Below, piece after piece: positions 1,404 to 3,500 of a DNA stretch of 64,000 bases. The DNA lies in assembly GCF_009914755.1 (NCBI RefSeq), contig NC_060925.1. One strand, given 5' to 3'. The notes beneath the pieces were generated by a model. That model worked only from the letters and a program-made list of their open reading frames with translations, was not told the DNA's origin and made no database searches. Position numbers and translations under genes: made by a program. Every line of letters starts with the position of its first letter. The first letter of the stretch is position 1. Source of the DNA: the human T2T-CHM13v2.0 reference genome, Homo sapiens.

Positions 1404-1718
<315 letters not shown>

Positions 1719-2642
1719 TAGAGGAATGTTGATTTACCATCTACCTGTGTTGGAAGCCTGTTCATTTTGGGATTTTATGATTGAAAACAGCAGCGGTGTG
1801 TGTTTCCTGCCTTCTGCCAGGATCATCTTATATTGGAAGCTGTTAGGAAAGGGTTGCTTTTCAAAATTTGTGCACATTACCCACAAACTCAGAAAGCTAC
1901 CTAAATCATTAAGACTAGAAATCTCAGTAGTCCAGGCATCTGGTGAGATACCTGCGGGCACTTCTTACTCGTGGCTAGGAGCCGGAGTTGAGTGGGTGGC
2001 AGGAGGCTGGAGGCCAGGCTGGGTAAGTCCAAGCTATGTTTCAGGGTATCACATGGTTAAGTGCAAGAAACAGGATGCGGTGTCATTTCTTCCTGGGTAT
2101 GTTGGGTGAGGGCAAGAACTTTGCAAACCCTAGGAGAGGATTATATTGTCAACAAGTCAAGTGATTTATATACAGTGTCAGTTTTTGTTGGCAATATCCT
2201 TTCAGTTATTTGTTTGTTCATTTTTTGGCTATATGAGGTGTGAGCTCCCTCACGAAGCCTGAAGGATTGATAAATTTCACCTGTGATCTAAAAACTTAGG
2301 AAAGATTCCCACTAGTGAAACCAAGTCACCAGCCAAGTAGATCATCCGTAAGAAAGCCTGAAATCTGCCTATGTTTCTGAAAAGTTAAGGTGGTCAGTGG
2401 TCAGGGGACAGGACAGGACTTCTGAGTCTGTATTCATTAATGGGTCACGTTGCACACCCTCAAGCATTGGTATTTCCTAGAAAAGTTGTGGCTGCCATGA
2501 CATTCTAGCATAGCTTGCTTTCCATTGTAGACTCAGTGTCTCATGTCCTTTGACTTTCTTTTTTGTCTGTCTGTCTGTCTGTCCTTGGTCTCCCCATCCC
2601 TCTCATTCTGTCTCATTGTCTTGCTGAAATTTGATGTCCCAG

Positions 2643-2681
2643 CCGCCCTTATGGCCAAACTGAAACTTTATGTAACAGATG
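2643..2681 (+). CDS. Candidate 39-nt alternative cassette exon of VANGL1: (A)ALMAKLKLYVTD(G)
   Basis: cccag|CC...GATG|gtaac, phase 1-1 matching the flanking exons, no stop codon. Peptide resembles the end of exon 5. No AG between 2537 and 2640. Confidence 0.55.
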
Positions 2682-2936
2682 GTAACATCTTCAGCACACT
2701 CTATGTGTTGTTTTTGGCCAACATTTTAATTGCCACCGTTCTTCATGCCCTTCTGAGTTCTTTTTCCATTTCCACTGACCAGATTGGGGTTTAGGGAGAT
2801 TCCTCTGCTCCCTTGCTTTGGACATAGTGAATGTGGAGCCGGGGCACAGTTCACCCTCCTGGGAAGTGACCTTTAGGATTTGTGTGTGTGTGTTTCATAG
2901 GGGGTGGGTAGACAACACTGACAGATTGGGTACTAG

Positions 2937-3500
<564 letters not shown>

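What the first reader, a model, noticed from the sequence alone, without database searches (positions are those of the whole stretch)
2537..2690. Hidden 39-nt frame-preserving VANGL1 exon that duplicates the LKxY tyrosine motif of exon 5
Seen: 2643-2681 is bounded by cccAG and GTaac, is 39 nt long and is phase 1-1, so it fits between exon 5 (ends GAT G|) and exon 6 (|GC CCC). It encodes ALMAKLKLYVTD(G). Exon 5 ends [12 protein letters not shown](G), and the DNA shares ATGGCC---CTGAAA---TA(C/T)------GATG|GTA, including the same splice junction, which suggests an ancient partial exon duplication. Inclusion gives ...[28 protein letters not shown], 13 aa longer than the 524-aa form I recall. Recalled knowledge: this (F/L)KxY tyrosine (VANGL1 Y312; Drosophila Vang FKYY, Vangl2 FKVY) lies in the region where Prickle and Dishevelled compete for binding under phospho-control, just upstream of the [14 protein letters not shown]-binding helix. 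Inference: a splice switch that doubles a core planar-cell-polarity docking site. I do not recall it in the standard VANGL1 isoforms, but cannot exclude a database entry.
Basis: partly seen in the sequence, partly recalled or inferred. Interest (0 to 1): 0.9.

Follow-up and report, generated by a model that had tools for sequence, protein, structure and literature searches.

The report
Unannotated conserved 39-base VANGL1 exon
A 39-base stretch inside a human VANGL1 intron matches a small optional exon that other vertebrates, from fish to mammals, are annotated as using, and it would add a second copy of a tyrosine-containing docking motif to this cell-polarity protein.

Summary
Window 2643-2681 is 39 nt, lies between AG and GTAACA, and is open in phase 1-1. 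It would insert AALMAKLKLYVTD between VANGL1 D315 and G316. No human RefSeq transcript uses it.

Splice-site strength and DNA similarity to exon 5 do not separate it from chance. The strongest evidence is comparative: 12 of the 120 vertebrate Vangl1 proteins listed carry a homologous 12-13-residue insert at the same junction. These are a bank vole, a gerbil, a marsupial, a lizard and eight teleosts including zebrafish. The human peptide is 12/13 identical to the vole and marsupial inserts.

A 104-nt AG-free, pyrimidine-rich tract ends at the acceptor. The encoded peptide matches the exon-5 tail at 7/13 positions, against at most 4/13 for 6585 control sites.

The insert falls in the unresolved loop 310-321 that holds the Y312 Prickle/Dishevelled switch.

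It is therefore very probably the human ortholog of an ancient, VANGL1-specific cassette exon. Human usage and the "doubled docking site" function remain untested. I found no paper describing it.

The parts
1424..1557 (+). VANGL1 exon 5 (constitutive), encoding residues 272-315 and ending in phase 1
   Evidence: RefSeq annotation; translation; match to PDB chain 8zxd_A residues 272-315
1519..1557 (+). Tail of exon 5 encoding [13 protein letters not shown], the LKVY312 motif. This is the stretch that the new exon resembles.
   Evidence: 24/39 nt and 7/13 aa identical, in register, with 2643-2681
2537..2640 (+). AG-free zone of 104 nt with a distal pyrimidine-rich tract (75-85% C+T from -21 to -100) that includes a (GTCT)n run at about 2565-2583. 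It is the presumed branch-point and polypyrimidine region of the cassette exon.
   Evidence: Only 7 of 4677 inter-AG gaps in the window are 104 nt or longer, and this one ends at the acceptor. Pyrimidine content is given per 20-nt bin. The repeat was read.
2622..2624 (+). Single UGC at -21 to -19 from the acceptor, a possible SRRM4-type enhancer element (the motif rule is recalled, not tested)
   Evidence: Motif scan
2641..2642 (+). Acceptor AG (weak proximal context)
   Evidence: PWM score -0.1 bits, 2nd percentile of 256 real acceptors; 20 of the 90 intron AGs score the same or better.
2643..2681 (+). 39-nt phase 1-1 cassette exon (T2T-CHM13 chr1:115,694,643-115,694,681) encoding AALMAKLKLYVTD, inserted between D315 and G316
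   Evidence: Orthologous inserts in 12 of 120 listed vertebrate Vangl1 proteins. Single copy in the human genome. Not in a masked repeat and not in any RefSeq transcript.
2682..2687 (+). Donor GTAACA (weak)
   Evidence: PWM score 3.2 bits, 2nd percentile of 252 real GT donors; 16 of the 110 intron GTs score the same or better.
3001..3133 (+). VANGL1 exon 6 (constitutive). It starts in phase 1 with (G)GC CCC and encodes [21 protein letters not shown]..., which includes the VCP-interaction motif.
   Evidence: passage in PMC11698917 placing the motif at 326-336

Best explanation
Window 2643-2681 is the human ortholog of an ancient, VANGL1-specific alternative cassette exon of 36-39 nt in phase 1-1. 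It lies in intron 5 and is missing from the human RefSeq annotation. When included, it inserts 13 residues (AALMAKLKLYVTD) between D315 and G316. That point is inside the flexible loop 310-321, directly after the LKVY312NVD motif that selects between Prickle and Dishevelled, and ten residues before the VCP-interaction motif. The insert repeats the pattern A-x-L-K-x-Y-x-x-D of the exon-5 tail, so the long isoform carries two such modules in tandem. Both splice sites are weak and the acceptor is served by a distant pyrimidine tract behind a 104-nt AG-free zone. This is the usual anatomy of an exon that is skipped by default and included only where an activator is present or a repressor is absent. 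Shown here: the sequence anatomy, its conservation as protein in other vertebrates, and the position in the solved structure. Inferred: that human cells use it (about 0.7), that it arose by copying the 3' end of exon 5 together with its donor (about 0.5), and that it changes the valency or balance of Prickle versus Dishevelled binding (about 0.3). The confidence given below is for the identity claim, namely that this is the ortholog of a conserved cassette exon.
For: Junction and peptide conservation. Of the 120 Vangl1 proteins listed (206 passed E<=0.001 among 207 candidates), 12 carry a homologous insert directly after ...GLKVYNVD, or in 5 teleosts after a further short insert. They are P0057 bank vole isoform X1 (AALMAKLKLYVAD), P0033 monito del monte isoform X1 (AALMAKLKLYITD), P0056 gerbil (AALMAKLKLCVAD), P0106 wall lizard isoform X2 (AALVAKLKMHLAD), P0081 zebrafish isoform X2 (EFKAKLKSYLFD) and seven other teleosts (such as VFKAKLKAYLLD). 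K5 and L6 of the 12-mer are invariant. A4, K7 and D12 are each kept in 11 of 12, and Y9 in 10 of 12. The human peptide differs from the vole and marsupial inserts at one residue each. A search restricted to the insert region found the same four tetrapod clusters. The AG-free run 2537-2640 ends at the acceptor, and only 7 of 4677 inter-AG gaps are that long. Upstream pyrimidine content is 75-85% from -21 to -100. The donor-anchored peptide identity to the exon-5 tail is 7/13, against at most 4/13 for 6585 other GT sites. The locus is single-copy and not repeat-masked. The insertion point lies in the loop reported as unresolved (310-321), so a 13-residue insert should be tolerated structurally (passage in PMC11698883; PMC11698917 says 302-324 is almost invisible).
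Against: I could consult no human transcript evidence. The supplied human RefSeq annotation has three curated VANGL1 mRNAs and no Gnomon model with this exon, although Gnomon models are present for VANGL2; this suggests low or restricted inclusion in human samples. Both splice sites score at the 2nd percentile of real sites, and 20 of 90 AGs and 16 of 110 GTs in the intron score as well or better. However, that PWM was trained on GC-rich loci and also scores VANGL1's own exons poorly. The non-human isoforms are computational predictions whose RNA support I could not inspect, and the protein clusters are 90%-identity clusters, so I cannot say how many species carry the isoform. Representatives from birds, turtles, caecilian amphibians, coelacanth, sharks and rays lack the insert, which may reflect annotation or true absence. 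For the docking-site idea, Tyr is His in the lizard and Cys in the gerbil model, and the residue at Y+2 is T/A/L/F/Y rather than the Val that fly Dsh binding needs. The AF2 model of P0057 draws the insert as a helix (316-328), but with pLDDT below 50.
Confidence: 0.78

Rival explanations
1. The exon is real in other vertebrates, but the human copy is a conserved-looking relic that human cells no longer splice, or splice only at noise level.
For: No human RefSeq or Gnomon transcript contains it, although human RNA data are the deepest of any species. The donor GTAACA and the proximal acceptor context are weak.
Against: The AG, the GT, the reading frame and 12 of 13 residues are intact relative to vole and marsupial. 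The 104-nt AG-free pyrimidine tract is also intact. A recently disabled exon could still look like this, so this rival is not excluded.
Confidence: 0.18
2. The exon is used, but it does not act as a second phospho-tyrosine docking site. Instead the insert forms a short amphipathic helix or a spacer. That would lengthen the alpha2-alpha3a loop and change the geometry between the Y312 motif, the VCP-interaction motif and the Prickle-binding surface of the helical domain.
For: The invariant residues are K5 and L6, with hydrophobic residues at positions 2, 6 and 10 of the 12-mer. The tyrosine is replaced by His in the lizard and by Cys in the gerbil model. The Gly of the exon-5 tail is Lys in every insert, which favours a helix. 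AF2 draws residues 316-328 of P0057 as a helix. The Y+2 Val needed for fly Dsh binding is absent.
Against: Tyr is kept in 10 of 12 inserts across fish and mammals, and five of the six best-conserved insert positions coincide with the exon-5 motif, which argues for the same kind of ligand. The AF2 helix has pLDDT below 50.
Confidence: 0.3
3. It is a chance pseudo-exon: an AG...GT open box that happens to resemble exon 5.
For: Intron 5 holds 142 frame-preserving open AG...GT boxes of 9-300 nt. The DNA similarity has E=0.031 in a small search, and a better unrelated hit (E=0.004) exists.
Against: The same peptide sits at the same junction in 12 of 120 listed proteins from mammals, a lizard and teleosts. 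Peptide identity to the exon-5 tail is 7/13, against at most 4/13 in 6585 controls. The long AG-free zone ends at the acceptor.
Confidence: 0.02

Closest known systems
Predicted 'vang-like protein 1 isoform X1/X2' of other vertebrates (for example P0057 Myodes glareolus 539 aa, P0033 Dromiciops gliroides 537 aa, P0106 Podarcis muralis 534 aa, P0081 Danio rerio 539 aa)
   Same: The insertion point is the same, after ...GLKVYNVD and before GP(S/G)NN. The length class is the same (12-13 residues). The peptide is nearly the same in mammals, at 12/13 identity to human.
   Different: These are computational models of other species. No such model is in the human RefSeq annotation supplied, and I found no paper that describes the isoform in any species.
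FKxY phospho-tyrosine switch of Vang/Vangl (fly Y374, mouse Vangl2 Y308, human VANGL1 Y312)
   Same: The insert has the core (L/F)-K-x-Y followed by an acidic residue at +3. It sits inside the mapped Prickle/Dishevelled-binding stretch, and five of the six best-conserved insert positions match the exon-5 motif.
   Different: No binding or phosphorylation data exist for the insert. The residue at Y+2 is not Val. Tyr is not universal (His in the lizard, Cys in the gerbil model). Gly is replaced by Lys.
Tissue-regulated short cassette exons or microexons, such as the SRRM4/PTBP-controlled neuronal programme (properties recalled, not from a call)
   Same: It is short, frame-preserving and deeply conserved, and it lies in a disordered loop next to an interaction motif. 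The splice sites are weak, the AG-free zone is long with a distal pyrimidine tract, and one UGC lies about 20 nt upstream of the acceptor.
   Different: 39 nt is longer than the strict microexon limit of 27 nt. No expression data were available. No GCATG lies within 2340-3000. No paper in the searched library holds both Vangl1 and 'microexon', and none of the four listed for Vangl1 plus SRRM4 looked relevant by title or abstract start.
Exons born by tandem exon duplication
   Same: It resembles the neighbouring exon, has the same phase, and has the same GATG|GTA exon-intron boundary.
   Different: Only the last 39-45 nt of the 134-nt exon 5 have a counterpart. The two copies are used together in tandem in the predicted isoforms, not mutually exclusively.
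Vangl2-Long, the N-terminally extended translational variant of Vangl2 (PMC11065751; search listing and start of abstract only)
   Same: It is another vertebrate-conserved way of making a second Vangl protein form.
   Different: It arises by alternative translation initiation, at the N-terminus, in the paralog VANGL2. It is not a splice insert in the C-terminal loop. Human VANGL2 intron 5 has no counterpart of the 39-nt exon.

Membership tests
Conserved Vangl1 cassette exon (the insert of isoform X1/X2 in other vertebrates) | Insert lies exactly between the exon-5 tail (...YNVD) and the exon-6 start (G-P-x-N-N) | tested here: met
   The human exon fits phase 1-1 between 1557 and 3001. Twelve of 120 listed proteins have the insert at that junction.
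Conserved Vangl1 cassette exon (the insert of isoform X1/X2 in other vertebrates) | Peptide homologous to the inserts of other species | tested here: met
   Human AALMAKLKLYVTD against vole AALMAKLKLYVAD and marsupial AALMAKLKLYITD is 12/13 each. The core AKLKxY is shared with teleosts.
Conserved Vangl1 cassette exon (the insert of isoform X1/X2 in other vertebrates) | Canonical AG and GT, no stop, length a multiple of three | tested here: met
Conserved Vangl1 cassette exon (the insert of isoform X1/X2 in other vertebrates) | Inclusion in human transcripts | not testable with these tools
   No read or junction data were available, and the exon is absent from the supplied RefSeq transcripts.
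FKxY phospho-tyrosine Prickle/Dishevelled-binding motif of Vang/Vangl | (F/L)-K-x-Y core | tested here: met
   Human has LKLY. Tyr is present in 10 of 12 insert-bearing proteins, with His in P0106 and Cys in P0056. The motif definition comes from a passage in PMC10381084.
FKxY phospho-tyrosine Prickle/Dishevelled-binding motif of Vang/Vangl | Lies within the mapped Pk/Dvl-binding stretch (human VANGL1 302-324) | tested here: met
   The insertion is after residue 315. The stretch is quoted in a passage of PMC11698917.
FKxY phospho-tyrosine Prickle/Dishevelled-binding motif of Vang/Vangl | Val at Y+2 (fly V376, needed for Dsh binding; described there as only partially conserved) | tested here: not met
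   Y+2 is T in human. In the other inserts it is T, A, L, F or Y. The requirement comes from a passage in PMC10381084.
FKxY phospho-tyrosine Prickle/Dishevelled-binding motif of Vang/Vangl | Tyrosine is phosphorylated, and the motif binds Prickle and Dishevelled | not testable with these tools
   This needs mass spectrometry and binding assays.
SRRM4-type neuronal microexon (criteria recalled) | Length 3-27 nt (strict) or up to 51 nt (broad) | tested here: inconclusive
   39 nt: outside the strict range but inside the broad one.
SRRM4-type neuronal microexon (criteria recalled) | UGC close upstream of the acceptor, behind a long pyrimidine tract | tested here: met
   One UGC at 2622-2624, and 75-85% pyrimidines from -21 to -100. 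A single trinucleotide is weak evidence.
SRRM4-type neuronal microexon (criteria recalled) | Neural-specific, SRRM4-dependent inclusion | not testable with these tools
   No expression data were available. No relevant paper appeared in the listing.
Exon derived by tandem duplication of the neighbouring exon | Sequence similarity to the neighbour beyond chance | tested here: inconclusive
   At DNA level it is 24/39, the best in the window, but blastn gives E=0.031 with a better unrelated hit. At peptide level it is 7/13, against at most 4/13 in 6585 controls. The peptide signal could also reflect selection for the same motif.
Exon derived by tandem duplication of the neighbouring exon | Homology over the whole exon and its flanks | tested here: not met
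   Only window 1516-1560 aligns with 2640-2684. Nothing else from exon 5 with 150 nt on each side aligns on the plus strand above noise.
Exon derived by tandem duplication of the neighbouring exon | Same intron phase on both sides | tested here: met
   Both end in phase 1 with GATG|GTA.

The most novel reading that the evidence does not exclude
VANGL1, but not VANGL2, has kept a regulated 13-residue splice insert since at least the common ancestor of bony vertebrates. The insert places a second copy of the phospho-tyrosine selector motif in tandem with Y312. The long isoform could then bind two cytoplasmic partners per protomer, or bind Prickle and Dishevelled at once, or need two phosphorylations to switch. 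Planar-polarity cells would gain a splice-controlled way of resetting the Prickle/Dishevelled balance, and this would be a first molecular difference in core function between the two Vangl paralogs.
Probability: 0.25. Interest if true: 0.8.

Novelty: new member of a known kind. Interest (0 to 1): 0.6.

Why it matters
VANGL1 and VANGL2 are core planar-cell-polarity proteins, and variants in them are linked to neural tube defects. The 310-321 loop with Y312 is the place where Prickle and Dishevelled compete, and it is invisible in the cryo-EM maps (passages in PMC11698883, PMC11698917 and PMC10381084).

A conserved optional exon that doubles this motif would mean that experiments with the 524-residue cDNA test only one of two natural forms. 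It would also mean that variants inside chr1:115,694,537-115,694,687 (T2T), now read as deep-intronic, could be coding or splice variants. The idea can be tested directly with junction-read look-ups, RT-PCR and pull-downs of the two isoforms.

If the exon proves unused in humans, the finding reduces to an annotation note about other vertebrates.

Tried and rejected
Splice-site scoring. I built position weight matrices from 256 internal exons of MANE-select transcripts in twenty 10-kb gene-dense chr1 stretches. Of the 256 donors, the 3 GC and 1 AT donors were dropped, leaving 252. The candidate scored at the 2nd percentile for both sites. VANGL1's own exons also scored poorly: the exon 5 acceptor at the 7th percentile and the exon 6 donor at about the 0th. 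The matrices therefore suit this AT-richer gene badly, and I give them little weight in either direction. MaxEntScan was not available.

DNA-level duplication. blastn of exon 5 with 150 nt on each side against the rest of intron 5 gave no extended homology, and a stronger unrelated minus-strand hit appeared. I therefore do not rest the duplication claim on DNA.

Paralog test. Human VANGL2 intron 5 (L021 5625-6128) has no xLKxY reading in any plus-strand frame. An origin before the VANGL1/2 split is therefore unsupported.

Teleost second insert. A GEFPAAPAE-like insert occurs in teleosts, but a pattern search found no human counterpart in intron 5.

Repeat or transposon origin. This is rejected: the region is not masked and gives a single self-match in the genome.

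Structure prediction. AF2 on P0057 used 73 of the 120 listed proteins as the alignment. I left out fragments and visibly aberrant models such as P0056, P0100, P0115, P0124 and P0145. The result was a low-confidence monomer (mean pLDDT 53.5), so I ran no fold search on it.

Literature. I ran these searches: Vangl1 + alternative splicing + exon (71 papers, 20 listed, mostly circRNA); Vangl1 + microexon (0); four peptide strings (0); Vangl1 + exon inclusion (1, unrelated by title); + SRRM4 (4); + alternatively spliced (17); + ESRP (18, 15 listed). None describes this exon, judged from listings. I read passages only in PMC2814853 (a gene-trap allele) and PMC13360528 (KAI1 splicing). One search, with min_terms 2, was badly framed and returned papers unrelated to VANGL1. 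Splicing catalogues usually list events only in supplements. The first two translations were in the wrong frame and are superseded.

Limits. Other vertebrate genomes, read data, GENCODE/Ensembl and cluster member lists were not available. I could not check nucleotide-level conservation, synonymous bias, primate sequences, or whether a human entry hides inside the 119-member cluster of P0057.
Full report
OBSERVATION. Positions 2641-2642 are AG, 2643-2681 is 39 nt, and 2682-2687 is GTAACA. Exon 5 (1424-1557) ends one base into a codon. Read in that phase, the 39 nt give AALMAKLKLYVTD and hand the same phase on to exon 6 at 3001. Exon 5 encodes residues 272-315 of human VANGL1, shown by an exact match to PDB chains 8zxd_A and 9jk6_A. 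The tyrosine of LKVY is therefore Y312, and the insert would lie between D315 and G316, giving 537 residues. The supplied RefSeq annotation has three VANGL1 mRNAs and none uses this stretch. Intron 5 holds no masked repeat, and the 261 nt around the exon occur once in the human genome.

IS IT MORE THAN CHANCE? Several simple measures say little. Intron 5 contains 90 AG and 110 GT candidates and 1906 AG...GT boxes of 9-300 nt, and 142 of these preserve the frame and are open. A position weight matrix built from 256 chr1 exons puts both candidate sites at the 2nd percentile of real sites, and 20 of 90 AGs and 16 of 110 GTs in the intron score at least as well. The matrix also scores VANGL1's own exons poorly, so it is a weak judge here. 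The in-register DNA identity to the exon-5 tail (24/39) is the best non-self match in the window on both strands, the next being 22. However, a local alignment gives only E=0.031 in a small search space, next to an unrelated minus-strand hit with E=0.004, and no homology extends beyond about 45 nt.

Two measures do stand out. First, the acceptor closes an AG-free run of 104 nt (2537-2640); only 7 of 4677 inter-AG gaps in the window are that long. The run is 75-85% pyrimidine from -21 to -100, while the last 20 nt are only 50% pyrimidine. This looks like a distant branch point and tract, which a proximal matrix does not see. Second, I translated the 39 nt ahead of every GT in the window in the donor-anchored phase. 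The candidate shares 7 of 13 residues with the exon-5 tail, whereas the best of the 6585 other sites (3486 on the plus strand, 3099 on the minus) shares 4.

THE STRONGEST EVIDENCE: OTHER VERTEBRATES. The protein search accepts only candidates of 0.55 to 1.75 times the query length, so I worked up in steps. Exon 4, translated by reference (202 aa), found 27 partial Vangl proteins. One of them, P0004 (318 aa, ending in the exon-5 tail), served as the query with its residues 272-318. It returned 206 proteins at E<=0.001 among 207 candidates, of which the best 120 were listed; 38 sample-only candidates were left out. Alignment and a pattern count show that 12 of these 120 have an insert directly after ...GLKVYNVD.

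The 12 proteins are:
- Bank vole isoform X1, AALMAKLKLYVAD (P0057, 539 aa, representative of a 119-member cluster).
- Monito del monte isoform X1, AALMAKLKLYITD (P0033, 537 aa).
- Mongolian gerbil, AALMAKLKLCVAD, in an otherwise aberrant model (P0056).
- Wall lizard isoform X2, AALVAKLKMHLAD (P0106).
- Zebrafish isoform X2, EFKAKLKSYLFD (P0081).
- Seven more teleosts with AFKAKLKAYLYD, VFKAKLK(A/S)YLLD, LFRAKLKAYLFD, VFKAKLRAYLLS or ILRDKLKSYLLD.

A third search restricted to the insert region of P0057 returned only the four tetrapod clusters among 54 candidates. The human peptide differs from the vole and marsupial inserts at one position each. Intronic DNA under no constraint would not keep a 13-codon reading with its AG and GT between marsupials and placentals, still less a recognisable core between teleosts and mammals. 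I conclude that the human 39 nt are the ortholog of an old cassette exon.

There are caveats. The isoforms are computational predictions whose read support I could not see. The clusters are at 90% identity, so the number of species is unknown. The listed representatives of birds, turtles, caecilian amphibians, coelacanth, sturgeon, bichir, sharks and rays lack the insert, which does not show that their genomes lack the exon. Human VANGL2 intron 5 has no counterpart, and all listed insert-bearing proteins are Vangl1.

WHAT IT WOULD DO. Passages of the two 2025 cryo-EM papers state that residues 310-321 of VANGL1 are unresolved and that Y312 lies there, between helices alpha2 and alpha3a (PMC11698883). 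They also state that 302-324, the stretch critical for Prickle and Dishevelled binding, is almost invisible, and that the VCP-interaction motif is at 326-336 (PMC11698917). Passages of PMC10381084 report that fly Y374 / mouse Vangl2 Y308 is phosphorylated. They report that the FKxY motif is needed for binding both partners, that charge at the tyrosine favours Prickle while Dishevelled needs the aromatic ring, and that V376 (Y+2) is needed for Dishevelled only. The insert therefore lands in a flexible loop where extra residues should be tolerated, immediately after that motif.

Across the 12 inserts the best-kept positions of the 12-mer are A4 (11/12), K5 (12/12), L6 (12/12), K7 (11/12), Y9 (10/12) and D12 (11/12).

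My preferred reading is a tandem second module of the same kind, included in a regulated way. I rate the specific idea that it changes Prickle/Dishevelled valency or balance at about 0.3. The main functional rival is a short amphipathic helix or spacer. In its favour, the Gly of the exon-5 tail is Lys in every insert, and hydrophobic residues recur at positions 2, 6 and 10. Also in its favour, Tyr is His in the lizard and Cys in the gerbil model, Y+2 is never Val, and AF2 draws residues 316-328 of P0057 as a helix, though with pLDDT below 50 in a poor monomer model (mean 53.5).

ORIGIN. The shared phase, the shared GATG|GTA boundary and the shared motif fit a copy of the 3' end of exon 5 with its donor, followed by recruitment of a new acceptor. 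The lack of extended DNA homology is expected after more than 400 million years but leaves convergence on one motif open. I rate duplication at about 0.5.

REGULATION. Weak sites, the long AG-free zone, CU-rich elements and one UGC at -21 resemble exons that are repressed by default and activated in particular cell types. These motif rules are recalled and not tested, no GCATG lies within 2340-3000, and I have no expression data. The absence of a human Gnomon model suggests low or narrow inclusion in humans. I put human use at about 0.7.

KNOWN OR NEW. The isoform exists as predicted protein records in other species, so it is not new to databases. It is absent from the human annotation supplied. 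I found no paper that mentions it (judged from listings; passages read were unrelated; supplements closed and not asked for). I file it as a new (unannotated human) member of a known kind, a conserved alternative cassette exon. Its position makes it of real interest to the planar-polarity field, and its function is open.

Noticed in passing
proteins P0073, P0107, P0110, P0111, P0117, P0118, P0120-P0125, P0128-P0131, P0133, P0134, P0136, P0141, P0142, P0144; window 1558-3000: Many teleost Vangl1 proteins carry a second short insert (GEFPAAPAE-like, 9-10 residues) right after exon 5, alone or ahead of the KLK-type insert. A pattern search found no counterpart in human intron 5.
   Followed up: partly
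window 2096-2155; protein P0100: A Macaca mulatta 'hypothetical protein EGK_01130' leaves exon 5 early and reads GTLGEGKNFTNPRRGLYCQQ. Human window 2096-2155 translates to the near-identical GMLGEGKNFANPRRGLYCQQ. This looks like an ab initio model using a different, probably spurious, piece of intron 5.
   Followed up: partly
window 1492-1534 (+) versus 1806-1848 (-): There is an inverted match of 69.8% over 43 nt between the middle of exon 5 and intron 5 (blastn E=0.004 in a small search). It is probably chance, though an exon-intron pairing that affects splicing was not examined.
   Followed up: no
window 2881-2895 and 2565-2583: A (TG)n run lies about 105 nt upstream of exon 6 and 200 nt downstream of the new exon. 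A (GTCT)n run lies inside the pyrimidine tract upstream of the new exon. Either could bind splicing regulators or vary in length between people.
   Followed up: no
window 1821-1942 and other boxes in intron 5: By the rough matrix, several intron-5 AG...GT boxes have stronger sites than the conserved exon; for example 1821-1942 is 122 nt with scores 9.0 and 8.9 but is not frame-preserving. They could be poison or cryptic exons or mere decoys.
   Followed up: no
L001-L023: the fetch from genomes returned 10,000 bases per region although up to 20,000 were asked for and the tool description allows that.
   Followed up: yes
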